Assembly (NCBI GenBank): GCA_947627135.1
Contig: CANQUV010000014.1
Span: 10,533 to 74,532 of the forward strand
Direction: 5' to 3'
Origin: an uncultured Clostridia bacterium
GTDB lineage: Bacteria; Bacillota; Clostridia; Oscillospirales; Acutalibacteraceae
Length of the DNA: 64,000 nt
The notes beneath the pieces are model-generated. The model saw only the letters and a list, made by a program, of their open reading frames with translations, searched no databases and was not told the DNA's origin. Shown here piece by piece: positions 22,039 through 46,494 of the stretch. Position numbers and translations under genes: made by a program. Within the stretch, counting starts at the first letter, position 1, and each line of letters opens with the position of its first letter.

Positions 22039-22226
22039 TTTTAATACTATTGGGGCAGGCGGTTTCCGTTTGCCCTATATTGCGTTTTTTACAGGTTTTT
22101 TATATTGGCACTTTAGCGGTAAAACGAGCTTGTATTTTTTAAAATTCAAGTTGGTTTTATTGCTAAGACAATGTAAAAATCCTGTTATTATATAAAATGA
22201 AAGTTTTACTTTCGGAAAGGATTTTT

Positions 22227-31216: not shown

Positions 31217-31687
31217 TCATTTACTTGATCTTTCTAAATACTTAACATAAGCTTTTTTGATAGCATCATATTTTTCCTCATCAGTATATGATTGATTCCA
31301 ATCGGTACCGCTTACTATGGTTTTGCCAATACAGCCCATAATTCTCGTGTGTGTATCGGTATCATATACATCGGCCTGTTCTATTCTTTCCATAGTGCCA
31401 TCATCTAAAACATAATAACCGGCTCCCAAAACATAATTCACATCATAAGATACAAAGAATGAGAGTTTTCCTGTTCCGTCAAAATCAAAGAACATAATTT
31501 TATTTATATATTCATCAGTGGTAGTCCCTGTTTGAGACGGTGTATCCCATTCGGAATTTAGTTTAAAAACATTATCAATGTTTTTACTGTCAGAATCCGT
31601 CAATGTAACACCCTGATTTGATGTGCATCCAACAAAAAGCAAAGTTAAGATTAAAACTGCTGATAGTGTAATATAAAACTTTTTCAT
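31217..31687 (-). CDS. lipoprotein of unknown function
   Basis: Signal peptide with lipobox LFVGC. ATGA overlap with the upstream gene. Confidence 0.55.
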   Translation of the reverse strand: MKKFYITLSAVLILTLLFVGCTSNQGVTLTDSDSKNIDNVFKLNSEWDTPSQTGTTTDEYINKIMFFDFDGTGKLSFFVSYDVNYVLGAGYYVLDDGTMERIEQADVYDTDTHTRIMGCIGKTIVSGTDWNQSYTDEEKYDAIKKAYVKYLERSSK

Positions 31688-32166
31688 TTCGGCTTAACCT
31701 CCCCGCATCCGCATGTTCCGACATAACTTGAATTGATTTTACCACACTTTTTACAAACCCATTCGCCTGTATGTACTGATCCTTTTGTTGTATTATAATC
31801 CAATTTAGTTCGGCACTTAAAGCATTGTGTATTATTGCTGCCGTTTAATTCACCGCAATTAGGGCACTCTATAAAACAAGGTTTTTTAGATACAGGAACA
31901 TTATCATTATCGTTTGGATTAATTTGTTCTTTGATGTTCAAAACCGCAATTCCGGCTATAAAAAGAACAATGCCGACAATTAAAAACAGCACAAATAAAG
32001 TATCGTAAATTTCACTCCAACTGCTTCTGCCGATATAATGCCCCAGAAAATAAATACTTGTTTTTGAATGGCTTGCGTCATTTGCAACATTTTTTATTAT
32101 GATTGCAAAGACAATAGATATTATTCCGGAAACAACATAAATTGAACCTGCTGTATTTTTCTTCAT
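31684..32166 (-). CDS. membrane protein with two C-terminal zinc-ribbon motifs
   Basis: Two TM helices, then CPNCG...CFKC and CKKCG...CGCG. Confidence 0.5.
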   Translation of the reverse strand: MKKNTAGSIYVVSGIISIVFAIIIKNVANDASHSKTSIYFLGHYIGRSSWSEIYDTLFVLFLIVGIVLFIAGIAVLNIKEQINPNDNDNVPVSKKPCFIECPNCGELNGSNNTQCFKCRTKLDYNTTKGSVHTGEWVCKKCGKINSSYVGTCGCGEVKPK

Positions 32167-32719: not shown

Positions 32720-34258
32720 TTAGATTTTTATCATTAAAAAGCTTTGTGCTCCTAATGTAACTTTGCCGCTTTTTACTTTGCTTTCCTTGATTTTATATAC
32801 AACTTCTTTAACAGGAGTATCAAAATCAACAGAAGCGTCATTTAAGGTTGGATTTACAAATATTACAAACTGACCTCTTTTATATACAAAAGGAAACTTA
32901 TTTTCCTCTGCATAAAGTACTTCAAAATCTCCGTCTGCTTGTAAATCTTCATTTTCATGACGAAGCTTAATAATATCCGTTACAACCTTATAAATGCTGT
33001 CAGGGTCGTCTTTCTGATTTTCAACAGTGGGTGCGTCTGAAGATGGGTCAACCGGTAAATATGGATTATCTGATGTGGAAAAGCCCAGGTTTTTTCCGCT
33101 GTTCCACTGCATCGGAGTACGGGTTCCCGTTCTGCTGAAACCTCCTTCTTTACTTACAAGTCCTTTTATATATTTCATTCCGATTTCATCACCGTAATAA
33201 AGAAACGGCACTCCCGGAAGTGTAAAAATTACTGCATCACCAAGCTTAATTGCTTCCTTGTCAAGATAATTTGTCAGTCGGGGTGTATCGTGATTACAGG
33301 TAAACATACTGATATATCCGTTGCCTTTTGTTTTTTCATAACCTTCAAGATAAGTTCTTGTAAAGTCTTTAATGTTGCCTTTTCCGTTTTTATTGAAAAA
33401 TCCCTTGTTTTCTCCGTCCTCTGAAAAACGGAAAAGATAGTTGTTGGGATTTTTAAAGTGGTCAAGACAAAAATCCATGTGAAATCCTGCATTATTAATA
33501 GCTCGTACCGGATTAGACCATTCTGCTACAAGTGCAGCCTCCGGGTATTCCTCATCAAGCATTTTGCGGATACCTCTCCAGATTTTTGCAGTTGCAATTT
33601 TTTCTTCATCATTTTTTACAAGTGAATCAGCCATATCCACTCTGAATCCGTCTGCCCCCATATCAAGCCAAAAACGCATTATATCCTTTAACGCCTCAAC
33701 AGTTTTAAGACAGTCGGGATGGTCGCAGGGCAGCTGCCATGCAGGGTGTGTAATATCGTAAAAACCATAATTTAATGCAGGCTGTGAACTGAAAAAGTTT
33801 ACAAGATAATTGCTGTCTCTTTCACATATTCCGCACATTAATCGGTATTGCGGAGGTGCTTCCCATACACTGTCTGTAAAAATATATCTGTTTGACAAAT
33901 CATTTTTTTCAGCTTTCTTTGCCTGTTGAAACCACGGGTGTGTATCTGATGTATGCCCCGGAACTAAATCAAGCAAAATTTTAATTTCTTTTTCGTGAGC
34001 AACTTTAAAAAGCCTGACAATATCTTCATTTGTTCCGTAACGCTCTGCTACTTTTTTATAGTTCCTTACATCGTATCCTGCATCCATAAATGGTGAATCA
34101 TATATGGGATTTATCCAAATCGCATTACAGCCTAACCCTTTTACATAGTCGAGCTTTTGTATAATACCCTCTATATCCCCGATACCGTCGCCGTTAGTAT
34201 CATAAAAGCTTTGAGGATAAATTTCATAAAACACTGCGTTTTTTAACCACTTAGGCAT
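32720..34258 (-). CDS. cytoplasmic GH13 alpha-glucosidase / oligo-1,6-glucosidase-like enzyme
   Basis: GH13 regions: YEIYPQSFYDTNGDGIGD, DLVPGHTS, GFRVDMAD, and NHD in FTCNHDTPR. No signal peptide. ATG at 34258 after AAAGGA. Confidence 0.8.
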   Translation of the reverse strand: MPKWLKNAVFYEIYPQSFYDTNGDGIGDIEGIIQKLDYVKGLGCNAIWINPIYDSPFMDAGYDVRNYKKVAERYGTNEDIVRLFKVAHEKEIKILLDLVPGHTSDTHPWFQQAKKAEKNDLSNRYIFTDSVWEAPPQYRLMCGICERDSNYLVNFFSSQPALNYGFYDITHPAWQLPCDHPDCLKTVEALKDIMRFWLDMGADGFRVDMADSLVKNDEEKIATAKIWRGIRKMLDEEYPEAALVAEWSNPVRAINNAGFHMDFCLDHFKNPNNYLFRFSEDGENKGFFNKNGKGNIKDFTRTYLEGYEKTKGNGYISMFTCNHDTPRLTNYLDKEAIKLGDAVIFTLPGVPFLYYGDEIGMKYIKGLVSKEGGFSRTGTRTPMQWNSGKNLGFSTSDNPYLPVDPSSDAPTVENQKDDPDSIYKVVTDIIKLRHENEDLQADGDFEVLYAEENKFPFVYKRGQFVIFVNPTLNDASVDFDTPVKEVVYKIKESKVKSGKVTLGAQSFLMIKI

Positions 34259-34468
34259 AAAAGAACATCCTTTCAAAACAGGTAAATACCCTTAATTATT
34301 TTAATAAAGTTTACCATTTTATTATAACTATTGCAATATATTTTTCATCTCCAAAATAAATTTTATTTTATAAAACATGTAAATTTTAGTTACCAATAAT
34401 ATTCACTTGCAAATTTTAATAATTCATCATAATATGGTAACAGAAACTTTATTTTTAAGGAGATAATT

Positions 34469-35038
34469 ATGACAATAGAGCAAATAGACAGCTCAAAGGT
34501 GTTGATTGCACTTTGTAATCAGGATATGAAGGATTACGAACTTGAATTTGACTCTATGGGCTTTGAAAATACTCATTCAAAAAAGATTCTCAACAGGTTT
34601 ATCACAATGGTTTGCAACAAAACAGGCTTGTCTACTAATAACAAAAGGCTTTTAATGGAAGCCCTTCCACATCAAAACGGATGCTTGATACTTGTAACAT
34701 TTATGGAAAAACGGATTCCGAGAACAAAGTACAGAATAAAAAAGCCAAAAGAAAATACCTGCTTTTGTTTTGAAAAAACTGAAGATTTTTTAAATGCAAT
34801 ATCACTTATTTACAAAGAAAATATTTATATTCGTTCAAGCAAGGCATATTTGTTTAAAAAGGAATATTACCTTGTTTTTGACTATCAGCCTATCCCCCAG
34901 ATTGCTAAAAGGATACTAAATGAATACGGAAAGCGAAAAAAATGCACAAGAGCATTTTTATCTGCCTTAAAAGAGGCAGGAACGACAATATGCGATAAAA
35001 ATGCAGTTGATACCATAGGCAAAGCTTTTTCAAGATAA
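34469..35038 (+). CDS. mecA: MecA-like adaptor protein
   Basis: Start M.IE.I....V resembles MecA (MEIERINEHTV in B. subtilis, recalled from memory). The C-terminal half (AYLFKKEYYLVFDY ... LNEYGK) parallels the MecA ClpC-binding domain. Confidence 0.55.
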   Translation: MTIEQIDSSKVLIALCNQDMKDYELEFDSMGFENTHSKKILNRFITMVCNKTGLSTNNKRLLMEALPHQNGCLILVTFMEKRIPRTKYRIKKPKENTCFCFEKTEDFLNAISLIYKENIYIRSSKAYLFKKEYYLVFDYQPIPQIAKRILNEYGKRKKCTRAFLSALKEAGTTICDKNAVDTIGKAFSR

Positions 35039-35041
35039 TTA

Positions 35042-35072
35042 AAGCGGTCATCATTTTTGATGACCGCTTTAG
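35042..35072 (+). terminator. intrinsic terminator after the mecA-like gene
   Basis: Stem AAAGCGGTCATCA / TGATGACCGCTTT. Confidence 0.7.
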
Positions 35073-35291: not shown

Positions 35292-35951
35292 TTATATTTC
35301 CAGATCTGCAGCAGCTTTTAAGTTTTCAATGGCTTTTTTGCTGTTTTGAGCTTTAAAAACAGCCGTTCCTGCAACGCATATATCAACTCCTGCCTTTGCT
35401 GCTTGTCCGATTGTATCTTCTGAAATACCGCCGTCAACTTCAATTAAAAGAGCTGGATTTTCTGTTTTTGTTTTTGCCTTTATTTCTATAACTTTTGAAA
35501 GCATATCTGCCATAAAGCTCTGTCCTCCAAAACCGGGCTCTACTGTCATTACAAGCACCATATACAAATCCTTTAAATACGGAAAAACCGAGCTTGCAGG
35601 GGTATTGGGCTTAATTACAAGGCCTGCCTTAATTCCCTTGCTTTTAATTTTATTAATCGTCTGTTTAATATCAGAGTCGCTTTCTACATGAAAAGTTATT
35701 ATATCTGCACCTGCAGAAGCAAAATCATCAATATATTTAAGCGGCTCCGAAATCATTAAATGAACATCAAAAGGAATTTTTGTATAAGAACGAACAGCCT
35801 TAATTACAGGGGCTCCAAAGGTTATATTTGGTACAAAATGACCGTCCATTACATCAAGATGAATAAAATCAGCTTTAGCTTCTTCCATTCTTTTTATTTC
35901 TTGACCCATTTGTGAAAAATCACAAGATAAAAGTGATGGAGCTATTAACAT
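35292..35951 (-). CDS. rpe: ribulose-phosphate 3-epimerase
   Basis: PSLLSCDF, HLDVMDGHFVPN and VDGGI motifs. 219 aa. Confidence 0.92.
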   Translation of the reverse strand: MLIAPSLLSCDFSQMGQEIKRMEEAKADFIHLDVMDGHFVPNITFGAPVIKAVRSYTKIPFDVHLMISEPLKYIDDFASAGADIITFHVESDSDIKQTINKIKSKGIKAGLVIKPNTPASSVFPYLKDLYMVLVMTVEPGFGGQSFMADMLSKVIEIKAKTKTENPALLIEVDGGISEDTIGQAAKAGVDICVAGTAVFKAQNSKKAIENLKAAADLEI

Positions 35952-35963
35952 AAAATCTTCTCC

Positions 35964-38780
35964 TTAAGACCTTTTAATTAATGGTGCTATAACTGCGGCA
36001 GCTGCCCAAAATACGGAATAAATCAATATTTCCATTGTTCCGATCACTTGTACTCCTGCATACAAGCACAAAAGACTGCACATAAGTACACCTAAAATTA
36101 TTGATATAAGCTGAATCATTACAGATAAGGAAATATTGCTGTTAAGTCTTACACAACCGGAAACTCCTCTGATAAATGAAGTAAACTTTCCTCTTGTTGC
36201 TAGATATGCACGGGATGATTCTTCAACTTGTTCCTGAATTTCCTTACCCTCGTTGCCCAGTCCTGTGGGAAGCACCTTGACGGAACGGTAAAAAATTCTG
36301 AAATCTTCTGCAATTTTATCTGATGTAATATTGTTATCGGTAGTTCTTACTAAAATGCTTACTCCGTTTTCTTCTGCACGCCTCAATTCTTCTGCAATTT
36401 CAGGGTCTGCGCTGTATTTCAATACAAACATAGCCGCAAGCTGACCCGCTTTAGATAAATAAGTAATTTCCTTACCCTCTAAACGGTATTTTTCTTCATA
36501 ATCGTCGGAAGGGGTTTCAATATTATATTTTTCCATAAGCTCTTTTGAACCTATTAGTATGCGTTCGCTGTTTACCCAGCCTAAAAGTCCCATCGAATCC
36601 TCATATAAAAAGCTTTCCACCTGCGGAAGTCCTTGACCTTTATCAATAGCTCTGTCAAAAATTGTCGACATAGGACTCTCTGCCTCTCTTAAAATTGCCG
36701 CACAAGCTATCAGAGCCTCATCTGCACCGTGCTCAATAAAGGTTTTTATTCCGTCAAGCATAACCCTCCCCTCGGGATACAGTTCTTTTGCATCTACTAT
36801 AACTCCGGTACTGTCGCAAAATTGTTTAACTGAAGGATAACTTGAAACCATAGCATCCTTTGACAAAAGATTTTTGCATAACATTTTAAGGGGAATATTT
36901 ACAGCAAGTAATGTTGCAACCGGAATACTGATTGCCGTCATTACCGCAAAAACGTTAATTACGCCGTCAAAAGACTGATGAAAAAAGCCATAGACAATTG
37001 CAACAAGAAGAGAAATAATAATTGTAAAAGGTGCAAATTTGCCTGCAAGCTCTTCACTAGGGTCAGGTGCATAAGAAATTTTAAGAAAATTGGATAAAAA
37101 TTCTGTTTTATGCTGATAAGCAACAATCGGCCTTTCAAAAACCGTTCCGCTCATCATTTTTGATGCGACATCTTCGTTAGTATAAATTTTTGCAGCATAT
37201 TTAGGTGCATTAGAGCTTACAAACTTAAAGTTATCCTTAACTCTTAAAACCATATAGAGTTTGCCCAGCGTATTTGCAAAGAATCCTAAAATAACAATTA
37301 CACTAAAGTATTGTACCGTAAAAGTATTTGCCCCAATTAAAAAGAAAAAGCTGATTACAGCCTGAAGGCAAGCCGCAATTGCTGCTGCTGACAACGCAGT
37401 ATCCGAATTTCCCTTAAATTTTACAAGAGGCGTTAATCCACTGATTATGGTAACACGGTTAATAACCACCGAAATTCCTAAAAGCAGTAGATTTATAACT
37501 GCATAAACAATTGGTGCATTTGCAATACCTGCGCAAAGCTGCCGGGGAATTATTCTTACTAAAAAAGAAATTACAATTGCTATAAATGAAATTATTCCCA
37601 TTCCCAGACTTCTTAAAAACAGTCTTTTTATATTAAGTTTAATTTCATCCAATATACTTTTTGCGTCTTCTTTTGAGGTATAATCCTCAACGGTTTCAAT
37701 CTTTTCCGGTGGAACATCCTGCGCAATTTGCTGTTCTTCACTGGAAAAAAAGCCTACAACCGCTTGGAGTACCTTTTCTGCAAAGGGTTTGCTGTCTTTT
37801 TTATTTATCTGCGGTTCTTCCGAAGCTGTACTGCCTTCCTTTTTTATAACATGAGAAATTGACGGATCGTTGGCATTTAAATACATTTCATATTCTTCTC
37901 TGACAACTGTTGAAAATTTGCCTGCTCTGATATGTACTTTATCAACATCTTCTTCTCTTTGATACACAGGAACCTTTGAAATGATCACCTGAGTTTTCGG
38001 CTTCTTAATTCCGAACAGTTTTTCGTAATTTCCTTTTATTTCTTCTTTTAATTGCTCCGGATTAATTGTTTTATCCTTTTTGCTTTTATTTTCTTTCTTA
38101 ACTTCCTCTTTATTTTCCCGTTCACTAGAAAAATTTTCTATGGCTTCTTCTTTTTGCTTTTTATCAAGGTCTAAATCTATATCTATTGTGTCAAAATCAG
38201 TTACCGTTACATTTCTTATGTGCAAATCTTCAACATCATCTAATACATCTTCTGAAAATGTAGTGTTTTCTGTGTATTCCGGCTTAAGGGTAACAACTGA
38301 CTTTTCTTTTTGTTCTTCCTGTTCCTTTTCTGTATCTTCAGATGCTTTTATTTCATCAGATTTTTCTCCGTCTATTTCTGCATTTTTCTGTTTCTCTTTT
38401 TCTGATGAGGCGGCTATCTGCGGAATTATTCCTTCAGGATTATTGATCAATATTTCAGTCTGCATTGTTACGGCAGATTCTTCATCAACGAGTGAATTTT
38501 CTTCTTGAATGATTTCCTGACTTTTTTCTTCACTGTCCAATTCAAGAGGATTTGTATTTTTATATCTTATTTTTTTAGAGGCATTACTGAATATTTCATC
38601 CATCTTCGGCTTTGCACGATATTTTTTTGCAGTTTCTTCCATTCTATCCTTTTCTGTTAAAAAATGAGTTTCTTCAAGAATGTTATCTATTACTAAATCT
38701 TTATTTTTAAACTTAATGGTATCCTGTTTTACTTCCGAATGATTTTGCGAAATATCCATTTTTTTATCTTTATTTTTCAA
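35964..38780 (-). CDS. membrane protein homologous to P1B-type (heavy-metal) P-type ATPases but with degenerate catalytic motifs, plus ~370-aa charged N-terminal extension
   Basis: The C-terminal ~560 aa align by eye with the CopA-like core. VIVDAKELY replaces VVFDKTGTLT. ESPMSTIF replaces SEHP. LPQVESF...ILIGSKELM matches LPEVEDF...VLVGNRRLM. VRTTDNNITSDKIAE replaces MLTGDN..TA.AIA. ATRGKFTS replaces VGDGIND. No CPC motif was seen. Confidence 0.6.
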   Translation of the reverse strand: MKNKDKKMDISQNHSEVKQDTIKFKNKDLVIDNILEETHFLTEKDRMEETAKKYRAKPKMDEIFSNASKKIRYKNTNPLELDSEEKSQEIIQEENSLVDEESAVTMQTEILINNPEGIIPQIAASSEKEKQKNAEIDGEKSDEIKASEDTEKEQEEQKEKSVVTLKPEYTENTTFSEDVLDDVEDLHIRNVTVTDFDTIDIDLDLDKKQKEEAIENFSSERENKEEVKKENKSKKDKTINPEQLKEEIKGNYEKLFGIKKPKTQVIISKVPVYQREEDVDKVHIRAGKFSTVVREEYEMYLNANDPSISHVIKKEGSTASEEPQINKKDSKPFAEKVLQAVVGFFSSEEQQIAQDVPPEKIETVEDYTSKEDAKSILDEIKLNIKRLFLRSLGMGIISFIAIVISFLVRIIPRQLCAGIANAPIVYAVINLLLLGISVVINRVTIISGLTPLVKFKGNSDTALSAAAIAACLQAVISFFFLIGANTFTVQYFSVIVILGFFANTLGKLYMVLRVKDNFKFVSSNAPKYAAKIYTNEDVASKMMSGTVFERPIVAYQHKTEFLSNFLKISYAPDPSEELAGKFAPFTIIISLLVAIVYGFFHQSFDGVINVFAVMTAISIPVATLLAVNIPLKMLCKNLLSKDAMVSSYPSVKQFCDSTGVIVDAKELYPEGRVMLDGIKTFIEHGADEALIACAAILREAESPMSTIFDRAIDKGQGLPQVESFLYEDSMGLLGWVNSERILIGSKELMEKYNIETPSDDYEEKYRLEGKEITYLSKAGQLAAMFVLKYSADPEIAEELRRAEENGVSILVRTTDNNITSDKIAEDFRIFYRSVKVLPTGLGNEGKEIQEQVEESSRAYLATRGKFTSFIRGVSGCVRLNSNISLSVMIQLISIILGVLMCSLLCLYAGVQVIGTMEILIYSVFWAAAAVIAPLIKRS

Positions 38781-38818
38781 ACGGCTCTCTCCTGCTATTA
38801 AAACTTTTACTTTTATTT

Positions 38819-39568
38819 TTATCTTTGCTGTGCAATTTGATACATTAATATTCCTGCTGCAACTGACGCATTTAGGGAATCTATATGTCCCTTTATCGGA
38901 AGGCTTACTATTGCGTCACAATGTTCCTTTACAAGTCTGCCTAAACCCTTGCCCTCATTTCCTATTACAATTGCAACAGAACCTTTAAAATCACATTTAG
39001 TATAATCTGTTCCGTTCATATCAGCTCCGAAAACCCAAAGACCTCTATCCCTAAGGTCGTCAATGCAATTCACCAAATTCCTTACCCTTGCAACCGGCAA
39101 ATATTCAACGGCTCCTGCCGATGCTTTTCCTACCGTATAATTTAATGTTGCACTTCTTCTTTCAGGAATAATTACTCCGTGTGCGCCTGCGCATTCGGCT
39201 GTCCTTATTATTGCTCCCAGGTTGTGGGGGTCTTCTATTTCATCAAGTACTATTACAAAAGGATCTTCTCCCCTGCTTTTCGCCAAAGAAAAAATATCGT
39301 CTACCGTTTGATATTCTTTTACAGACGCTGTTGCAATAATTCCCTGATGAACTGTTCCTCCGCTTAAAAAATCAAGCTTTTTGGAATCAACTTCTCTAAC
39401 GGGAATTTTTTTCTCTTTTGCTTTCGCAAGGATCCCCACGATCGTTCCTGTTTTAGCCCCTTTGGCTATAAGAATTTTATCAATGTTTCTTCCGCTTTTT
39501 ATCGCTTCTGATACAGGATTTCTTCCGGCTATTACATCGGATTTTGACTCTTTTAATTTTTTTTCCAT
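38819..39568 (-). CDS. rlmB: TrmH-family 23S rRNA (guanosine-2'-O)-methyltransferase (RlmB/YacO-like)
   Basis: N-terminal substrate-binding domain (AGRNPVSEAI). SpoU motifs DPHNLGAIIRTA, GNEGKGL and LNASVAAGI. Confidence 0.8.
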   Translation of the reverse strand: MEKKLKESKSDVIAGRNPVSEAIKSGRNIDKILIAKGAKTGTIVGILAKAKEKKIPVREVDSKKLDFLSGGTVHQGIIATASVKEYQTVDDIFSLAKSRGEDPFVIVLDEIEDPHNLGAIIRTAECAGAHGVIIPERRSATLNYTVGKASAGAVEYLPVARVRNLVNCIDDLRDRGLWVFGADMNGTDYTKCDFKGSVAIVIGNEGKGLGRLVKEHCDAIVSLPIKGHIDSLNASVAAGILMYQIAQQR

Positions 39569-39731
39569 ATTTTATCCTTATTAAAATACTATATTAAAAT
39601 ACTACATAATGACAATTATTTTAATTAACCAACAAGATAATACTAAATGTTGTTTACATATATATTTTAGTATAACATAATTGACTTCGTTTTAGAATAG
39701 AAAATTTATAAATATTTATATAGAAAAAAGG

Positions 39732-40316
39732 TTAATTTCCGTACAAACTGTCAAGAAAAATTGCACCTTTATCGAAATTTGGGGGAATAATTCCGTACAA
39801 GTTGTTTTGAAAATCAAAAAATATCGGAATTTTTAAAGGATACGGAGTAAAACAAATATAAGAAACAGAAAAAAGCAAAAGCATAAAAAGACTGGGAACA
39901 AAAAGATAACTTACATTGAGTTCTTTCAATAACAGCTGATACGATAATGAGTAAATTACTGCCGAAAGCAACATTATAAAAATCGTCTCTATAATTCCCT
40001 TTACTTCAACTCCTAAAAGCTGAAGCAGGGTTGCTGCAATACAATATAATGCTCCCATTGAGTAAACAAGAAATGTTTTTATTACAACAAAGGTTTTAAA
40101 CTTAGGAATTATTACACACAGCTCAATTACGCTCCATCCCAAAAATGCCAGCAAATAAAGTTTAATACTTTCCCATACACTGTTGTTGGCCGAACCGAAA
40201 AACAAGTTGAGCAAATGGTCGCTTTCAAGAGAATTGAAATGGTGCAGTATAAACCAAATCAAAAATGTCACTGCTGCTCCTGAGATCTCTAAATATTTTA
40301 AAGTTTTTTTATTCAT
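39732..40316 (-). CDS. polytopic membrane protein of unknown function
   Basis: 194 aa with 5-6 hydrophobic helices and no diagnostic motif. Confidence 0.45.
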   Translation of the reverse strand: MNKKTLKYLEISGAAVTFLIWFILHHFNSLESDHLLNLFFGSANNSVWESIKLYLLAFLGWSVIELCVIIPKFKTFVVIKTFLVYSMGALYCIAATLLQLLGVEVKGIIETIFIMLLSAVIYSLSYQLLLKELNVSYLFVPSLFMLLLFSVSYICFTPYPLKIPIFFDFQNNLYGIIPPNFDKGAIFLDSLYGN

Positions 40317-41423: not shown

Positions 41424-42359
41424 TTAACCAAACAATGAACCTAATGATGAAATTCCGCTCATTGCGCTGTTCATTGTACTGCCTAATAAACTGGCAACTC
41501 CCAAAATGCCTGATGCCCATAAACATACAAACACAATAATAAACAGAGCAATTGTAATAAACAAAGCATTCAGTAATATAAATTTGCAATCGTTAGTAAT
41601 TTGTACGATAATAGTATTTTTTATTTCATTTAACAAAGCAACTATTAAATAAATGATTGTAAAAACAAGCAATATTATCATTAAATAAGCTGATATAAAT
41701 GAGCAAAGTCCTGCTAAAATAAATCCGATAGAGGCAGGGATTGAAAGGATTGCAAAGCTGACAAATGAATTTACAAAAGCATTTTTGGTATCAGGATTTT
41801 TGTTAAATATTTTTTCCTGTAATAATAAAATCACAGTAAAGCAACCGCCTATAAGAACCGTTATCACTACGGATACAAGCAAGGATTTAGGAAAATCCAA
41901 CACACTTGCTCCGGACCAACCTATTAGGGGCTTAAGCAAATTATCAAAAGATAAAGGAACAAAAATATTGAACAGCAAAACTGAAATAAACAAAATTACC
42001 GAATAAATAACTGATACTGCAATATCCTTTGTTTTTTTAGCAACATTTATTGTCTGTCTTAAGTTTTTCCAAAATGACATAAAAATAACCGGAGTATTTT
42101 TTAAGGCTTTAACCACATTACCGTCACCTGAAGAAGCAGAAGCCGCCTCTACCTTATACGGTGACTGATTTATAACAGGAGGCTGTTGAACAAACTGCTG
42201 ATTCTGATTGTTTTCAAAAGCGACCGTTTGATTTTCTTGTTGATTTTGTTGTACCGAAGCCTGTTTGGCAGCATTTTCTGCTTGTTCTTTTAATGCCTCC
42301 TCACAATTACATACTGCATTGTCATCTAATTGTTTACCACAATGTCTGCAAAATTTCAT
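41424..42359 (-). CDS. zinc-ribbon membrane protein
   Basis: N-terminal CRHCG...CNC ribbon, Q-rich linker, then 4-5 TM helices. Confidence 0.5.
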   Translation of the reverse strand: MKFCRHCGKQLDDNAVCNCEEALKEQAENAAKQASVQQNQQENQTVAFENNQNQQFVQQPPVINQSPYKVEAASASSGDGNVVKALKNTPVIFMSFWKNLRQTINVAKKTKDIAVSVIYSVILFISVLLFNIFVPLSFDNLLKPLIGWSGASVLDFPKSLLVSVVITVLIGGCFTVILLLQEKIFNKNPDTKNAFVNSFVSFAILSIPASIGFILAGLCSFISAYLMIILLVFTIIYLIVALLNEIKNTIIVQITNDCKFILLNALFITIALFIIVFVCLWASGILGVASLLGSTMNSAMSGISSLGSLFG

Positions 42360-42428: not shown

Positions 42429-44228
42429 TCAGCCCGCAATTTTTGTATATGAATAATTATCAGAATTTAAATATGTAGCATATTTTATTGCGTCATTAAC
42501 ATTTTTATTTGATGAATCATATTCATCACGGCTATAAACAAATTTACCGTCTGATACATAGCAGTCTATAAAGTAATAAACCAAATAACTGTCTTCTTCT
42601 TTATCGCTCAGCCAACCTTTATATTTACCCTTAACGACTGCAGCAACAACATTAGTTTTGCTGTCTGTATTCTTTTTAGGTGTAACATAATATATTGAAA
42701 CAACCTCCGGATTTGTAAAATTATAAAAATCTTTATCCTTTAAAACTTCGTTAAAGGTAGTTTTTATAAGTTCTACATTACTTTTAGCTTCATCTAATGT
42801 TAACGGTGTATTAGCCTCTACAACAATATCTTTTTTAGTTTCAGTAAAGAATAAACCTTCTTCAGGAATATATTCTTCATCAAGATAAAGAGTTACCTTC
42901 TCTCCGCTTGATAATCCGGAACTGTAATAACTATCATCATTTTTTACGGAAATTCCTACTTTATCAACAATAACAGAATCTTTCTTTATCGTAATGTAAT
43001 AATCATCTGTATCATAGCTGTATGTATAATCTCCTTCTGTGTATTCAAAATCACTTAAAGAAAATTCCAGTTCTTTATCTTTAAAACCGGTCACTGTATA
43101 TAATTTATTGCTCTCTATATATCCCAGAGGATCGGAATCTGTTGCCTCTAATACCGAAATACCTTCGTCTTCTAAAATACTGTTTAATGCAAATTCATAT
43201 TGTCTGTCGCTTTTATCAAATGAAATTCCAAGTTTCTTTTCTGCTTCTTCAATTGTTCTCAAATCACTTTTACTTTCAGGCCATTTAACGCTTACTATAA
43301 TTACATCGCTGCTTTTCAAGTTGGTAAGTCTTGCATCATCATCGCTTGATGAAAATTCTGTTTGACTACTTGCTTTATCTCCGCCTGAATTAGAATCCGC
43401 ATCATCATTTGTTGCTTTTTCATCAGCGTCTTTAACTTCTGCTGAAATATCACAGTACGATATTATTGAATATATACTTGCCGATGAACTTGATGAACCG
43501 CCGATACTGTTTATAAGATCTCCTAAATCTTTAATGTCATCAATATCTTCAAGACTTTCAAGACCATCTTTTGCTTTTATATTGACATCATAGTCATCTG
43601 ATAATTTTTCTTCATCAATAGAAACTGTTAAACTTCCGTGACCTTCATAAAATTTACTGCTGTCAAAATTGAATTTTATGTATTCTTCATTTATTTTTAT
43701 TTTGTTAAACATAGGAATCACAATAATTAAAGTAACTACTATTGCAATTACTAATACTGCTGCTACTGCGCATAATATTATTGCCTTTTTATTAAGAGGC
43801 TTTTTTTGTTTTTGTGGTTTTGCTGCAGTTTGAGTTATGTCAACATTTTGCGGCTGTACCGCAATCTCGTTTGTTAAATTATAAGTTTGCTGTATTGACT
43901 CTTGATTTACTGAATTGTCAGCAATACTTTCAGGGGCTTGATTTTCTGCTTTAGTTTCATTTACTGAATTATCAGCAGTATTTTCAGGGACTTGGTTTTC
44001 TGCTTTAGTTTCATTTACTGAATTGTCAGCAGTATTTTCAGGGACTTGATTTTCTGCTTTAGTTTCATTTACTGAATTGTCAGCAGTTCTTTCAGGGACC
44101 TGATTTTCAGTTTGTTCTTGATTTGTTGCAGTTTCTTCCGATACAGGCAGCAATCTATTGCCGCACTTTTCACAAAACTTGTCTCCTTCATTAATTTTTG
44201 CTCCACACTTCGTGCAAAACATACCCAT
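42429..44228 (-). CDS. zinc-ribbon / single-pass membrane protein with 18-aa tandem repeats and large extracytoplasmic domain
   Basis: N-terminal CTKCG...CEKCG ribbon. Repeats ENQVPENTADNSVNETKA x ~4. TM segment AIILCAVAAVLVIAIVVTLIIVI. Confidence 0.5.
   Translation of the reverse strand: MGMFCTKCGAKINEGDKFCEKCGNRLLPVSEETATNQEQTENQVPERTADNSVNETKAENQVPENTADNSVNETKAENQVPENTADNSVNETKAENQAPESIADNSVNQESIQQTYNLTNEIAVQPQNVDITQTAAKPQKQKKPLNKKAIILCAVAAVLVIAIVVTLIIVIPMFNKIKINEEYIKFNFDSSKFYEGHGSLTVSIDEEKLSDDYDVNIKAKDGLESLEDIDDIKDLGDLINSIGGSSSSSASIYSIISYCDISAEVKDADEKATNDDADSNSGGDKASSQTEFSSSDDDARLTNLKSSDVIIVSVKWPESKSDLRTIEEAEKKLGISFDKSDRQYEFALNSILEDEGISVLEATDSDPLGYIESNKLYTVTGFKDKELEFSLSDFEYTEGDYTYSYDTDDYYITIKKDSVIVDKVGISVKNDDSYYSSGLSSGEKVTLYLDEEYIPEEGLFFTETKKDIVVEANTPLTLDEAKSNVELIKTTFNEVLKDKDFYNFTNPEVVSIYYVTPKKNTDSKTNVVAAVVKGKYKGWLSDKEEDSYLVYYFIDCYVSDGKFVYSRDEYDSSNKNVNDAIKYATYLNSDNYSYTKIAG
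43903..44110. repeat. 54-bp in-frame tandem repeat (~3.8 copies) inside the CDS
   Basis: The TTTAC landmark recurs at 43906, 43960, 44014 and 44068, an exact 54-bp period. Confidence 0.9.
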
Positions 44229-45348: not shown

Positions 45349-46359
45349 TTATCTCATTTTTATATTTACTGCGTGAGCTATTCCGGGAATGCTTTCACCC
45401 TGAAAACAGGTGGTAGGACTCATAAGCGCTCCTGTTGCCATAAAAATTATATTATTAAATGTACCATTTTCCATATTATTTAAAATATAAGAACACAATA
45501 CACTTGCACTGCATCCGCAGCCTGAACCTCCACAATGGACATCCTGTTTTTTCCCGCTATAAATCATAAGTCCGCAGTCATGATGTTTATCGCTTATATA
45601 TATTTTCTCTTTAGCCAGTACCTCATAGAGCAAGTCACTGCCAAGTTTACCCAAATCTCCTGTAAAAATTGCGTCATAATCATTTGCTGTTGTAGCAGTA
45701 TCTTCAAAATATCTCATTAGAGTCTGTGCTGCTGCAGGTGCCATAGCTGCCCCCATATTATTTACATCGTTTACTCCGTAATCTACTATTGACCCTACCG
45801 ATGCCCTGGCTATACATGGTCCTTTTTTTGCATTAGATAAAATACAACTTCCACTTCCGGTTACTGTCCATTGTGATGTTGGGGTTCTTTGACCACCATA
45901 CTCAAGAGGAAAACGGTATTGTCTTTCTGCGCTGCAAAAATGTGAAGACGTAACACACGCGGCAGTTTTCGCAGCACCGCTTTCTACCATTACGCTTGCC
46001 ATTATAAGTCCTTGCGCCATAGTTGAACAAGCTCCGTACTGGCCTAAATAAGGTATATCAAAGCCTCGCATTGAAAAGCTGGATGAAACACACTGATTAA
46101 GCAGATCCCCTGCAAAAATAAAATTTACCTCTTCATTTGAAATTTGGGATTTTTGTAATGCAATTGTAAATGCCTCTTCCTGAAAAAAGCTTTCTGCTTT
46201 TTCCCAACTATCCTTACCTGCATAAGAATCATATATTATCTTATCAAAGTAATTTTTAAGAGGTCCTTCTGATTCTTTCTTTCCTGCCACTGAACCGTAT
46301 CCGATAATTGCAGGCATTTCTTCAAATCCTAAAGTATAATGTCCTATTCTTCGTATCAT
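45349..46359 (-). CDS. spoVAD: stage V sporulation protein AD
   Basis: Thiolase/KAS-III-like fold. Start MIRRIGHYTLGFEEMPAIIGYGSVAGKKESEGPL is typical of SpoVAD. AAAGGAG RBS before the ATG at 46359. Confidence 0.85.
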   Translation of the reverse strand: MIRRIGHYTLGFEEMPAIIGYGSVAGKKESEGPLKNYFDKIIYDSYAGKDSWEKAESFFQEEAFTIALQKSQISNEEVNFIFAGDLLNQCVSSSFSMRGFDIPYLGQYGACSTMAQGLIMASVMVESGAAKTAACVTSSHFCSAERQYRFPLEYGGQRTPTSQWTVTGSGSCILSNAKKGPCIARASVGSIVDYGVNDVNNMGAAMAPAAAQTLMRYFEDTATTANDYDAIFTGDLGKLGSDLLYEVLAKEKIYISDKHHDCGLMIYSGKKQDVHCGGSGCGCSASVLCSYILNNMENGTFNNIIFMATGALMSPTTCFQGESIPGIAHAVNIKMR

Positions 46360-46494
46360 AAAAAACTCCTTTTTGCATAAAGCTGACTTAATACATGTTT
46401 TAGCTTTATTATCTGCAAAAAGGAGTAAATTAATCATTTATTGAGCAGGCATAATCTAAAAATTTTATTAAATGCTGAATTTTAAAAATTAAAT

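What the first reader, a model, noticed from the sequence alone, without database searches (positions are those of the whole stretch)
35964..38780. P1B-type P-type ATPase homolog with every catalytic signature degenerate, fused to a ~370-aa charged N-terminal extension
The C-terminal ~560 aa line up with the copper/heavy-metal ATPase core:
- LPQVESF..GW....ILIGSKELM versus LPEVEDF..G......VLVGNRRLM.
- EGKEITYLSKAGQLAAMFVL versus EGKTVVLVAVDGKLAGLIAL.

The catalytic motifs are not preserved:
- DKTGT reads DAKEL.
- TGDN reads TTDN.
- GDGxND reads RGKFTS.
- The SEHP nucleotide-site motif reads ESPM.
- I see no CPC/CPx ion-path motif.

Only the Asp aligned with the phosphorylated residue remains. 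The N-terminus is a long E/K/D-rich low-complexity region rather than an HMA metal-binding domain.

This suggests a pseudo-ATPase adapted to a structural, scaffolding or signalling role. It sits between rlmB and rpe on the same strand.
Basis: partly seen in the sequence, partly recalled or inferred. Interest (0 to 1): 0.65.

Follow-up and report, generated by a model that had tools for sequence, protein, structure and literature searches.

The report
Dead copper-pump relative paired with rlmB
This gene encodes a well-conserved membrane protein that keeps the shape of a copper/zinc-pumping ATPase but has lost the chemistry needed to pump, carries a long acidic tail with a conserved tip, belongs to a large unnamed family of gut Clostridia, and always sits just after the ribosomal-RNA methylase gene rlmB; its job is unknown.

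Summary
ORF 35964-38780 (-) encodes a 938-aa protein. Its C-terminal 569 aa are homologous to P1B heavy-metal ATPases:
- HMMER E = 1e-14 to the CopB fragment.
- hhalign probability 99.1% to CopA/ZntA.
- AlphaFold pLDDT 95, with top Foldseek hits CopA, ATP7B and ZntA.

The catalytic kit is gone:
- DKTGT reads DAKEL.
- The A-domain is cut to about 50 aa and has no TGE.
- The catalytic Lys is Leu.
- GDGxND reads TRGKFT.
- CPC reads IPV.
- There is no HMA domain.

It is not a decaying gene. dN/dS is 0.04-0.12 in every segment. The substitutions themselves are conserved across more than 1,000 50%-identity clusters, all called "hypothetical".

New findings:
- In 9 of 9 divergent contexts and 78 of 80 Ruminococcus-type genomes, the gene lies 12-55 bp downstream of rlmB on the same strand. 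The rpe linkage is clade-specific.
- The acidic, disordered, length-variable N-terminus carries a conserved tip motif, [FY]-[ST]-x-[DE]-[DE]-I-L-x-E.

Best reading: a non-pumping pseudo-ATPase that serves as a membrane anchor or sensor and presents a tethered peptide to a cytoplasmic partner. The function is untested. It is a new variant of a known kind.

The parts
35964..38780 (-). Whole CDS of the pseudo-P1B-ATPase ('X'): 938 aa, TTG start, TAA stop.
   Evidence: ORF list. Start and stop verified. 100% identical cluster P0001 exists in the protein collection.
38788..38793 (-). AGGAGA ribosome-binding site, 7 nt upstream of the TTG start. It lies in the 38-bp gap after the rlmB stop.
   Evidence: Sequence read directly.
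38652..38699 (-). N-terminal tip motif (aa 28-43, DLVIDNILEETHFLTE). This is the family-wide short linear motif [FY]-[ST]-[LVI]-[DE]-[DE]-I-L-x-E.
   Evidence: Motif HMM: 65/143 representatives score >=8 bits, against 1 reversed and 0 shuffled; 64/65 hits lie in the first 40 aa. Present in the most divergent clades. It is the only hit among window ORFs (12.1 bits).
38544..38609 (-). Second conserved N-terminal motif (aa 58-79, PKMDEIFSNASKKIRYKNTNPL).
   Evidence: Invariant M60, I63, F64, S65, R72, N75, P78, L79 in alignment A1. A [ED]-[ED]-I-[FY]-S-type motif occurs in the first 140 aa of 22 representatives.
38001..38543 (-). Acidic, predicted-disordered linker (aa 80-260; 29% D+E, net charge -26). 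Variable in length and sequence between relatives.
   Evidence: Composition. AF2 pLDDT <50. Gaps and indels in A1. Family N-terminal extensions run 155-1208 aa with median net charge -29. Still under purifying selection, dN/dS 0.08-0.12.
37674..38000 (-). Conserved juxtamembrane segment (aa 261-369): VPVY, AGKFSxVVRxEYExYL, VVGFFS, acidic run, VEDY.
   Evidence: Invariant and near-invariant columns in A1. AGKF...R.EYE and DY..E.DA consensus also appear in long divergent members, A6. No Pfam domain.
37215..37664 (-). Four N-terminal transmembrane helices equivalent to MA, MB, M1 and M2 of P1B pumps (aa 373-522), ending in the new motif RVKDNFKF.
   Evidence: AF2 helices H4-41, H53-71, H92-112, H124-153 in core numbering. 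hhalign aligns from CopA residue 212 (MB) onward. G448, D460, Q473, N503, G506, R513, N517 and F518 are >=85% conserved.
37062..37214 (-). Remnant of the actuator (A) domain, about 50 aa instead of about 130. The TGE dephosphorylation loop is deleted; only the 'AGT' beta-hairpin (here SGT) is left.
   Evidence: hhalign gaps opposite CopA ~315-430; MSGTV aligns to CopA VHAGTV. AF2 shows only two strands and two short helices between M2 and M3.
36861..37061 (-). M3 and M4 (aa 574-640), preceded by the new motif SYAPDPSE. The M4 ion-site CPC is replaced by I619-P620-V621 (36918-36926); the proline kink is kept.
   Evidence: HMMER alignment to 3rfu. Family table: P620 in 135/147, flanking positions hydrophobic, N628 in 124/147.
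36741..36860 (-). N-terminal half of the P-domain (aa 641-680). The former phosphorylation motif DKTGT reads D663-A-K-E-L667 (36780-36794).
   Evidence: HMMER and hhalign alignments. Family consensus D-[AS]-x-[DEQ]-L-[YF]-P; D in 125/147. The Asp is Ser or Ala in the divergent clades P0317 and P0320.
36411..36740 (-). Nucleotide-binding (N) domain fold (aa 681-790). SEHP reads A-E-S-P (His lost). Glycines G731, G734 and G744 are retained.
   Evidence: Alignment to CopB and CopA N-domains. G731 and G744 in 147/147, G734 in 107/147; the His position is G or S. AF2 pLDDT >90.
36186..36410 (-). Truncated C-terminal half of the P-domain (aa 791-865). TGDN reads TTDN (36333-36344). The catalytic Lys becomes L841 within LPTGL (36258-36272). 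GDGxND reads T-R-G-K-F-T (36180-36197). The last beta-alpha-beta unit before M5 is missing.
   Evidence: T813 84%, D815 98%, L841 in 87/147 with no Lys among the five commonest residues, T-[KR]-G-[RK]-x-[ST] with G864 in 141/147. In the AF2 model the helix leading to M5 starts 2 residues after G864.
35976..36185 (-). C-terminal helices M5 and M6 (aa 866-935), with conserved Q890, G897 and W925. No Cu/Zn-site residues.
   Evidence: AF2 H497-539 and H546-566 in core numbering. Conservation.
38819..39568 (-). rlmB (23S rRNA Gm2251 2'-O-methyltransferase), immediately upstream on the same strand. This is the family's conserved partner gene.
   Evidence: TIGR00186 at 243.8 bits against cutoff 160. 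Pfam SpoU_sub_bind + SpoU_methylase. Adjacency in 78/80 close genomes and 9/9 divergent contexts.
35292..35951 (-). rpe (ribulose-phosphate 3-epimerase), starting 12 nt after X's stop. Its GGAGAA RBS begins directly after the stop codon of X.
   Evidence: TIGR01163 at 278 bits. Sequence. Linked in the Ruminococcus clade (78/80) but not in the other divergent contexts.
39588..39615 (-). Sigma-70-like promoter candidate upstream of rlmB (TTGTCA-16-TATAGT). Consensus match only.
   Evidence: 10/12 matches. Such matches are only slightly enriched over shuffles, so this is weak evidence.
35040..35071 (.). Strong 14-bp-stem hairpin between rpe and the convergent mecA-like gene. It is the likely bidirectional terminator that ends the rlmB-X-rpe unit.
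   Evidence: No comparable hairpin lies between rlmB, X and rpe.

Best explanation
**What it is (shown).** X is a non-pumping descendant of a P1B (Cu/Zn-type) P-type ATPase.
- It keeps the 8-helix membrane domain with the M4 proline kink, the N-domain fold and the core of the P-domain.
- It cannot run the phosphorylation-dephosphorylation (Post-Albers) cycle. The KTGT part of DKTGT, the catalytic Lys and both Mg2+-binding aspartates are replaced. The A-domain with its TGE loop is largely deleted and the P-domain is truncated.
- It has no metal-coordinating residues in M4-M6 and no HMA domain.
- The family is ancient, abundant and under strong purifying selection.
- It is co-transcribed with, or at least always adjacent to, rlmB.

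**How it most likely works (inferred).** The pseudo-pump acts as a membrane anchor and possibly as a conformational sensor. Its former catalytic pocket retains D663, T813 and D815 and has gained R812, K/R863 and R/K865, which could form a locking salt-bridge cluster or a new anion-binding site. From this anchor a long acidic, disordered, length-variable cytoplasmic tether extends. Its conserved tip peptide (...[DE][DE]ILxE...) and a second motif (MDEIFS) recruit one or more cytoplasmic partners to the membrane. Given the invariant rlmB linkage, the partner may belong to ribosome or RNA metabolism, but that step is speculative.
For: **Homology and fold:**; model pLDDT 95.

**Loss of catalytic residues, conserved in 147 representatives down to ~28% identity**:
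- DKTGT becomes D[AS]x[DEQ]L[YF]P.
- The catalytic Lys becomes Leu.
- GDGxND becomes T[KR]G[RK]x[ST].
- CPC becomes [VI]-P-hydrophobic.

**Domain losses:** the A-domain/TGE deletion and the P-domain truncation.

**The Asp is dispensable:** it is Ser or Ala in the divergent clades, while the adjacent [DE]-L-F-P motif is kept.

**Purifying selection:** dN/dS 0.04-0.12 in the N-terminus, acidic linker, core and P/N-domain.

**New invariant motifs:** RVKDNFKF, SYAPDPSE, LPTGLGN.

**Family size:**
- 1,076 50%-identity clusters at E <= 1e-30, all covering the full core at the C-terminus.
- More than 7,000 90%-identity clusters at E <= 1e-5.

**N-terminus:**
- Acidic: net -27 here, family median -29.
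- Predicted disordered.
- No Pfam domains.
- Tip motif in 65/143 against 0-1 in controls, almost always within the first 40 aa.
- Length polymorphism of 1421-1677 aa among near-identical-scoring Pseudoruminococcus variants.

**Operon:**
- RBS and 38-bp gap after rlmB; the rpe RBS begins directly after X's stop; the only strong hairpin lies after rpe.
- rlmB is immediately upstream in 78/80 close genomes and 9/9 divergent contexts.
Against: - No experiment or expression data exist. The scaffold/tether role is inferred from architecture alone, and no partner is identified.
- D663 (85%), T813 (84%), D815 (98%) and the N-domain glycines (73-100%) are retained. The old active-site region is therefore still under selection, so ligand or nucleotide binding, or even unusual chemistry, is not excluded.
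- The TMEM94/ERMA dispute shows that motif-based calls of inactivity in P-type-like proteins can be contested (PMC12134183 against PMC13322241).
- Gene adjacency to rlmB may reflect only shared housekeeping expression.
- The GDGxND register rests on position and predicted secondary structure, not on a significant sequence alignment.
Confidence: 0.5

Rival explanations
1. Ligand-gated sensor ('transceptor without transport'). The remodelled P/N headpiece or the polar residues in the membrane core (Q473, N503, N628, Q890) still bind a small ligand such as a nucleotide, a phosphate-containing messenger or an ion. Binding switches the conformation, which is then read out by the N-terminal region. 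This overlaps with the best explanation but puts sensing, not anchoring, at the centre.
For: - The N-domain glycines G731 and G744 are 100% conserved, and T813 and D815 are kept.
- Two basic residues replace the Mg2+-binding aspartates around the invariant G864.
- The M4 proline kink and conserved amide side chains sit in M1, M2, M4 and M5.
- The idea that P1B pumps can act as receptors is discussed in PMC10654040.
Against: - The ATP-contacting His of SEHP is lost, and the Glu is kept only in close relatives.
- The first Gly of GxGxxG is not conserved.
- The retained glycines may be purely structural.
- No ligand is suggested by the genomic context.
Confidence: 0.2
2. Still an energy-coupled transporter with non-canonical chemistry. 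D663 is phosphorylated with help from the new residues, or the TM domain mediates passive or secondary transport of an unknown substrate.
For: - D663 is retained in 85% of representatives, and T813 and D815 are retained.
- The complete 8-TM bundle with the M4 kink is preserved.
- ERMA/TMEM94 is claimed to be an active ATPase despite lacking TGES (PMC13322241).
Against: - The catalytic Lys and both Mg2+-ligand aspartates are lost.
- The TGE loop and most of the A-domain are deleted, and the P-domain is truncated.
- The Asp is absent in divergent clades that keep the rest of the motif.
- There are no ion-coordinating Cys, His or acidic residues in M4-M6.
- 99.77% of recognised P-type ATPases carry DKTGT (PMC3896382).
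Confidence: 0.07
3. Sporulation-specific morphogenetic membrane protein. X acts at the forespore or mother-cell membrane of endospore-forming Clostridia.
For: - The host encodes SpoIIE and SpoVAD in the same window.
- Divergent members lie near SpoIIE, the GPR protease or an FtsW/SpoVE-family gene.
- All identified hosts are Clostridia.
Against: - The gene is packed between housekeeping genes (rlmB, rpe) with no room for its own promoter: a 38-bp gap with an RBS.
- The sporulation neighbours differ from context to context, and such genes are common in these genomes.
- No sporulation-sigma promoter test was possible.
Confidence: 0.1
4. Decaying pseudogene or mis-annotated broken pump.
For: Canonical motifs are missing, and Pfam and NCBIfam scores are far below their cutoffs.
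Against: - The 938-codon frame is intact with an RBS.
- dN/dS is 0.04-0.12.
- The same substitutions and new invariant motifs are conserved across more than 1,000 clusters.
- Synteny is conserved.
- The AF2 model has pLDDT 95.
Confidence: 0.01

Closest known systems
P1B-type (heavy-metal) P-type ATPases: CopA, CopB, ZntA, ATP7B
   Same: - The overall architecture matches: MA, MB and M1-M6 helices, the M4 proline kink, the P-domain Rossmann core with an inserted N-domain, and both termini cytoplasmic.
- These are the best sequence, profile and structure matches.
- Ancestral non-catalytic motifs are kept: MDT-like D460, the G-K of M2, the AGT hairpin, and T/D of TGD.
   Different: - There is no DKTGT, no TGE or full A-domain, no catalytic Lys, no GDGxND, no CPx or M5/M6 metal ligands, and no HMA domain.
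- The P-domain is truncated.
- Pfam and NCBIfam scores fall below every cutoff.
- A 155-1208-aa acidic disordered N-terminus with a tip motif has been added.
- The gene is fixed in position after rlmB.
TMEM94 / ERMA (eukaryotic P-type-ATPase-like protein with disputed activity)
   Same: It has a P-type-like fold with A/P/N-like cytoplasmic domains and a proline-broken M4, but lacks the TGES dephosphorylation motif. One structural study found no phosphorylation, no Mg2+ binding and no ATPase activity (PMC12134183).
   Different: - It is eukaryotic, has 10 TM helices and is P2-like rather than P1B-derived.
- It retains a candidate phospho-Asp.
- Another group reports it as an active ER Mg2+ ATPase (PMC13322241).
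- There is no detectable sequence relationship to X.
P4-ATPase-like modules fused to guanylate cyclases in Apicomplexa and ciliates
   Same: These are a precedent for a P-type ATPase module used for regulation, localisation or sensing rather than, or in addition to, bulk transport (papers listed). From my own knowledge, not checked here: the GC-beta module is regarded as catalytically degenerate.
   Different: - They are eukaryotic and of the P4 (flippase) lineage.
- They are covalently fused to an enzyme output domain.
- In P. falciparum GC-alpha the catalytic Asp is required (bioRxiv 10.1101/2020.09.07.285734).
- X has no output domain, only a disordered tail.
Membrane-anchored disordered scaffolds of bacteria, such as the RNase E C-terminal half or the FtsZ C-terminal peptide on a flexible linker (own knowledge; analogy only)
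   Same: The architecture is a conserved short peptide at the end of a long, variable, disordered linker attached to a membrane-associated body. This is the classic arrangement for capturing partners.
   Different: There is no homology. The partner of X is unknown, and the anchor here is a whole pseudo-pump rather than an amphipathic helix or a polymer.

Membership tests
P-type ATPase superfamily (functional pumps) | DKTGT phosphorylation motif with the acceptor Asp | tested here: not met
   The motif reads D663-A-K-E-L. The family consensus is D[AS]x[DEQ]L[YF]P in 147 representatives, none with DKTGT. The Asp itself is Ser or Ala in divergent clades.
P-type ATPase superfamily (functional pumps) | Actuator domain with the TGE(S) dephosphorylation loop | tested here: not met
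   The M2-M3 cytoplasmic segment is about 50 aa against about 130 in CopA. hhalign shows gaps opposite CopA ~315-430, which includes TGE. AF2 shows only 2 strands and 2 short helices.
P-type ATPase superfamily (functional pumps) | TGD(N) motif of the P-domain | tested here: inconclusive
   It reads T813-T-D-N. T (84%) and D (98%) are conserved, and G is replaced.
P-type ATPase superfamily (functional pumps) | Catalytic Lys and the GDGxNDxP Mg2+ site | tested here: not met
   The Lys position is L841 (Leu in 87/147, and Lys is not among the five commonest residues). GDGxND is T-R-G-K-F-T here and T[KR]G[RK]x[ST] in the family. The GDG register is inferred from position and AF2 secondary structure.
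P-type ATPase superfamily (fold level) | TM bundle with a proline-broken M4, plus P-domain Rossmann fold with inserted N-domain | tested here: met
   AF2 pLDDT 95, pTM 0.90. Foldseek top 50 hits are all P-type ATPases, the best at E 4.9e-18. hhalign probability 99.1%. P620 is present in 135/147.
P1B subfamily (heavy-metal pumps) | 8-TM topology with the extra MA and MB helices | tested here: met
   Four helices precede the A-domain remnant and four follow it. P1B structures outrank KdpB and the P2/P3 pumps. hhalign starts at CopA MB.
P1B subfamily (heavy-metal pumps) | CPx/SPC/TPC ion-site motif in M4 and metal ligands in M5/M6 | tested here: not met
   CPC aligns to I619-P-V621. The family has [VI]-P-[VMILF]. 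M5/M6 carry Q890, G897 and W925 only.
P1B subfamily (heavy-metal pumps) | N-domain SEHPL / GxGxxG nucleotide-site signature | tested here: not met
   SEHP reads A-E-S-P here; the family has G/S at the His position. Of the GxGxxG glycines, the first is lost, the second (G731) is 100% conserved and the third (G734) 73%. G744 is 100% conserved.
P1B subfamily (heavy-metal pumps) | N-terminal HMA metal-binding domain(s) (common, not universal) | tested here: not met
   There is no HMA or any Pfam domain in the N-terminus of X or of 57 other members, and no GMxCxxC motif (for the divergent members).
P1B subfamily (heavy-metal pumps) | Curated model cutoffs (Pfam Hydrolase/E1-E2_ATPase; NCBIfam TIGR01525, PRK10671) | tested here: not met
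   Pfam Hydrolase 20.6 bits against 26.4, and E1-E2_ATPase not detected. TIGR01525 49 bits against 346; PRK10671 58 bits against 1316.
Pseudoenzyme (general definition) | Homologous to an enzyme family, lacks its catalytic residues, yet is maintained by selection | tested here: met
   Homology. Residue loss. dN/dS 0.04-0.12. Family-wide conservation.
Pseudoenzyme (general definition) | Demonstrated lack of catalytic activity | not testable with these tools
   This needs purified protein: phosphoenzyme formation and ATPase assays.
Anti-phage defence systems (PADLOC) | Match to any known defence-system protein model | tested here: not met
   No PADLOC hit for X or for four upstream ORFs at E <= 0.01.

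The most novel reading that the evidence does not exclude
X and RlmB form a functional pair. The pseudo-pump is a membrane station that couples late 50S ribosomal-subunit maturation, or ribosomes and RNA metabolism more broadly, to the membrane or to an ionic or energetic signal sensed by the fossil pump. The conserved N-terminal tip peptide on its acidic, nucleic-acid-mimicking tether docks RlmB, a ribosomal protein or the large subunit. This would be the first bacterial pseudo-P-type ATPase with a defined non-transport role, and a new link between the membrane and ribosome biogenesis in gut Clostridia.
Probability: 0.1. Interest if true: 0.85.

Novelty: new variant of a known kind. Interest (0 to 1): 0.68.

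Why it matters
**Why the finding is unusual.** P-type ATPases are defined by DKTGT. In one large survey 99.77% of recognised members carried it, and the exceptions were single point variants (PMC3896382). A recent broad review of open questions in the field contains none of the words 'pseudo', 'inactive', 'degenerate' or 'non-catalytic' in that sense (PMC10654040).

**What is new here.**
- An ancient, abundant family of more than 1,000 50%-identity clusters has shed the whole catalytic cycle.
- It is strongly conserved in dominant gut and rumen Clostridia (Ruminococcus, Ruminococcoides, Pseudoruminococcus, Acutalibacteraceae).
- It is invisible to Pfam and NCBIfam and is annotated only as 'hypothetical'.

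**What it offers.**
- A clean natural example of how a primary pump is converted into something else.
- A specific handle for study: the invariant rlmB pairing and the tip motif on a disordered tether.
- An immediate annotation gain for thousands of metagenomic proteins.

If the rlmB link is functional, it would point to an unknown membrane-ribosome connection.

Tried and rejected
- **Pseudogene or decay: rejected.** dN/dS is 0.04-0.12 and the substitutions are conserved.
HMMER, hhalign and the family table agree that no intact DKTGT or GDGxND exists anywhere in the protein or in 147 representatives.
- **HMA or any other known domain in the N-terminus: none found.** Pfam found nothing in X, in 24 closer members or in 33 long members. 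The only hit was Lysostaphin_N-type repeats in one Pseudoruminococcus-like sequence.
- **Tandem DNA repeats in the window's N-terminal coding region: none of note**.
- **Defence-system or mobile-element origin: no support.** There are no PADLOC hits, and the context is housekeeping and syntenic.
- **Full-length AlphaFold with a shallow alignment: uninformative** (pLDDT 51). It was replaced by a core-only model built on 79 diverse sequences.
- **Using the weak hits P0317, P0319 and P0320 as canonical pump references: not possible.** They turned out to be still more divergent pseudo-ATPases. E. coli CopA and ZntA were used instead.
- **GTDB scan with the very diverse alignment: failed.** No stretch was conserved enough. 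The scan with a closer alignment returned only Ruminococcus-like genomes among the 80 kept, so the taxonomy of the most divergent clades remains 'Clostridia/Clostridiales bacterium' at best.
- **Literature searches: nothing relevant found.** Searches for pseudo or non-catalytic bacterial P-type ATPases, FUPA families and pseudo-transporters gave no description of this family.

Full report
**1. The object.**
- Window 35964-38780 (minus strand) is a 938-codon ORF with a TTG start.
- An AGGAGA ribosome-binding site lies 7 nt upstream, in the 38-bp gap after the stop codon of the preceding gene.
- The next gene starts 12 nt after its TAA stop, and that gene's RBS (GGAGAA) begins directly after the stop codon.
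- The flanking genes pass NCBI equivalog cutoffs for RlmB (23S rRNA Gm2251 methyltransferase, 244 bits against 160) and Rpe (278 bits against 213) (Pfam).
- The only strong hairpin in the region lies after rpe, facing a convergent mecA-like gene. A sigma-70-like hexamer pair precedes rlmB.
- I therefore read rlmB-X-rpe as one transcription unit. This is inferred from spacing, not measured.

**2. Is it a P1B-ATPase homolog?** Yes.
- Pfam sees only a sub-threshold Hydrolase match.
- NCBIfam CopA and heavy-metal ATPase models match aa 576-851 at E 5e-16 and 3e-13, but at 4-14% of their cutoff scores.
- Against PDB sequences the best hits are the A. fulgidus CopB catalytic fragment (E 1.3e-14) and L. 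pneumophila CopA (E 1.1e-12). A family profile raises LpCopA to E 1.1e-15.
- A profile of 79 family members aligns to E. coli CopA+ZntA with 99.1% probability (E 1.6e-18), from helix MB to the P-domain.
- A full-length AlphaFold run with a shallow alignment was poor: pLDDT 51, with aa 1-368 disordered.
- The core (aa 370-938) modelled with 79 diverse sequences gave pLDDT 95 and pTM 0.90.
- Foldseek against the PDB ranks LpCopA, ATP7B, AfCopA, ZntA and HMA4 first (E 5e-18 to 1e-11, TMq up to 0.60), then KdpB, then the P2/P3 pumps.
- The model has four helices before and four after a small cytoplasmic insert. That is the 8-TM P1B topology.

**3. What is lost and what is kept.** Residue-level alignments and a table over 147 representatives down to 28% identity give the following.

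Lost or replaced:
- DKTGT becomes D663-A-K-E-L. The family has D[AS]x[DEQ]L[YF]P, with no DKTGT anywhere.
- CPC in M4 becomes I-P-V. The proline is kept in 92%.
- SEHP becomes A-E-S-P. The His is lost family-wide, and the Glu is kept only in close relatives.
- The catalytic Lys becomes L841.
- GDGxND becomes T-R-G-K-F-T. The family has T[KR]G[RK]x[ST]: both Mg2+-ligand aspartates are gone, and basic residues flank the conserved Gly.

Partly kept:
- TGDN becomes T-T-D-N, with T at 84% and D at 98%.
- The N-domain glycines G731 and G744 are invariant, and G734 is at 73%.

Domain-level losses:
- The actuator domain is reduced from about 130 aa to about 50. The TGE loop is deleted and only the 'AGT' hairpin (here SGT) remains.
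- The P-domain lacks its last beta-alpha-beta unit, because the helix leading into M5 begins two residues after G864.

In the most divergent clades even the phospho-acceptor Asp is Ser or Ala, while the neighbouring [DE]-L-F-P is kept. Selection is therefore acting on something other than phosphorylation.

Two motifs are one residue out of register, and 'only the Asp remains' overstates the loss.

**4. Not decay.**
- Against four orthologous loci, dN/dS is 0.04-0.07 for the core and the P/N-domain and 0.06-0.12 for the N-terminus and its acidic part. dS is about 1 or higher, so the values are approximate but far below 1.
- New invariant motifs have appeared: RVKDNFKF after M2, SYAPDPSE before M3, KQFCD, RTTDxN and LPTGLGN.

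**5. Size and naming of the family.**
- An exhaustive phmmer search of 1.84 billion representatives finds 3,173 clusters at E <= 1e-3 and 1,076 at E <= 1e-30.
- All of the top 150 match the entire 569-aa core at their C-terminus. Their N-terminal extensions run from about 0 to 1,200 aa.
- A profile search collects more than 7,000 90%-identity clusters.
- Every source name is 'hypothetical protein', apart from one JGI 'cation transport ATPase'.
- Named hosts are Ruminococcus, Pseudoruminococcus massiliensis, and 'Clostridiales' or 'Clostridia bacterium'.
- In GTDB species representatives, 211 species matched one peptide pattern. The 80 kept are Ruminococcus, Ruminococcoides, Acutalibacteraceae, Oscillospiraceae and one mis-named Eubacterium.
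- Weak hits that I first took for genuine pumps (P0317, P0319, P0320) are in fact still more divergent members with the same architecture.

**6. Context.**
- In 78 of 80 close genomes the order is rlmB-X-rpe, usually preceded by a DUF6512 gene (72/80).
- I looked up nine divergent members. Five have other downstream neighbours (LepA, EF-G, radical-SAM/DUF2344, trehalase, peptidase M23), one has an ABC transporter, one contig ends right after X, and two still have rpe.
- In all nine the gene directly upstream, on the same strand and 12-55 bp away, is a SpoU_sub_bind+SpoU_methylase gene.
- The four of these that I scored pass the RlmB equivalog cutoff.
- rlmB-then-X is thus the family's signature synteny, kept over divergence to about 22-28% identity. 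rpe is a clade-specific passenger.
- From my own knowledge: in Bacillus the gene after rlmB (yacO) is yacP/rae1. X occupies that slot here but is unrelated to it.

**7. The N-terminus.**
- It is acidic: net -27 here, with a family median of -29 and a range from -196 to +21.
- It is predicted disordered and has no Pfam domain.
- Its length is polymorphic even within Pseudoruminococcus (1421-1677 aa, with Lysostaphin_N-type repeats). That probably explains the many 'partial' NCBI entries.
- It is not featureless. A tip motif [FY]-[ST]-[LVI]-[DE]-[DE]-I-L-x-E (YSVDDILEEIK, FSLDEILAEAR; here DLVIDNILEETHF, aa 28-40) occurs in 65 of 143 full-length representatives, against 0-1 in reversed or shuffled controls.
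- Of those 65 hits, 64 lie in the first 40 residues (median position 11), and the most divergent clades are included.
- Other subclades start with S-P-I-R-N-L-F-[RK] or carry M-[ED]-E-I-[FY]-S. The window protein has the latter as well (aa 59-66).
- No other ORF in the window has the tip motif.
- A conserved peptide at the end of a long variable tether is the usual design for capturing a partner protein. That is my inference.

**8. Mechanism.**
- Shown: a P1B fold; loss of every residue class needed for phosphoryl transfer, dephosphorylation, Mg2+ binding and metal coordination; strong selection; the rlmB pairing; and a tail with conserved motifs.
- Inferred, about 0.5: a membrane anchor or sensor that presents tethered peptides to cytoplasmic partners.
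- The old active-site pocket is still conserved (D663, T813, D815, with R812, K/R863 and R/K865 gained). It is either a salt-bridge lock that freezes the headpiece or a new anion or nucleotide site. The second option is the main rival, a ligand-gated sensor at about 0.2.
- A residual unconventional pump (about 0.07) is hard to reconcile with the deletion of the A-domain and the dispensability of the Asp.
- A sporulation-specific role (about 0.1) has only circumstantial support. The window encodes SpoIIE and SpoVAD, and sporulation genes appear near some divergent members.
- Pseudogene: about 0.01.

**9. Comparison with what is known.**
- Structurally X belongs to the P-type ATPase fold and, within it, to the P1B lineage.
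- It fails the defining catalytic features, so it should not be annotated as a cation-transporting ATPase.
- The nearest conceptual precedents are eukaryotic. TMEM94/ERMA has a P-type-like fold without TGES and disputed activity (PMC12134183 and PMC13322241). The other precedent is the P4-ATPase-like modules of alveolate guanylate cyclases.
- I found no description of a bacterial family of this kind. Surveys of the superfamily report DKTGT in 99.77% of members.

**10. Verdict.**
- It is a new variant of a known kind. It is a large, conserved, unannotated family with a sharply defined genomic partner and a testable architecture. Interest 0.68.

Noticed in passing
window 38652-38699 (-), and the N-termini of family members P0121-P0269, P0306, P0312, P0316-P0320: A conserved tip motif [FY]-[ST]-[LVI]-[DE]-[DE]-I-L-x-E sits within the first ~40 residues in 65/143 members (0-1 in controls). 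Other subclades carry alternative N-terminal motifs (SPIRNLF[RK], M[ED]EI[FY]S). The partner is unknown.
   Followed up: partly
proteins P0323-P0427 (Pseudoruminococcus massiliensis-like); locus L094:1059-5723: Within one species-level group the protein varies from 1421 to 1677 aa, with Lysostaphin_N-type (PF25533) repeats in the N-terminus. NCBI entries for it are often 'partial'. This suggests a repeat-length-polymorphic tail that breaks assemblies.
   Followed up: no
window 39732-40316 (-): A DUF6512 membrane protein lies just upstream of rlmB and is conserved there in 72/80 Ruminococcus-type genomes and in locus L093. It is absent from the other divergent contexts. It may or may not belong to the same unit.
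   Followed up: partly
window 52612-54942 (-) and 45349-46437 (-): SpoIIE (SpoIIE_N + PP2C domain) and SpoVAD are encoded in the window, so the host is an endospore-forming Clostridium-class organism.
   Followed up: no
window 32720-34276 (-) and 56425-58044 (-): Two GH13 alpha-amylase genes, one with a SusG_C-like tail. Together with the closest relatives (rabbit, horse and ruminant gut Ruminococcus MAGs at 89-90% identity), this fits a Ruminococcus bromii-type starch degrader.
   Followed up: no
window 41424-42359 (-), 42429-44228 (-), 31684-32166 (-): Three ORFs with N- or C-terminal zinc-ribbon motifs. At least two are followed by hydrophobic or low-complexity regions. No family assignment beyond the zinc ribbon, and no PADLOC hit for the two tested.
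   Followed up: partly
window 34469-35038 (+) and 35040-35071: A short MecA-like adaptor gene (matching only the C-terminal domain of the Pfam MecA model) converges on rpe. A perfect 14-bp-stem hairpin lies between them, a likely bidirectional terminator. The MecA-amylase pair is syntenic in some relatives (6/80).
   Followed up: no
window 38080-38508 (+): A 142-aa ORF lies antisense to the acidic-linker coding region of X. Its S/F-rich translation is what the reverse strand of E/K/D codons produces, so it is almost certainly spurious.
   Followed up: no
window 22197-24434 (+): The local G+C peak (0.41 against ~0.32) coincides with the PNPase gene (RNase_PH x2, KH, S1). This reflects the composition of a highly expressed conserved gene, not an island.
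   Followed up: no
loci L081, L082, L083, L092, L093: In several divergent contexts an OGG/HhH-GPD DNA glycosylase gene, in most of them together with a DUF6062 gene, lies upstream of rlmB-X. This is a second, weaker recurring neighbourhood.
   Followed up: no
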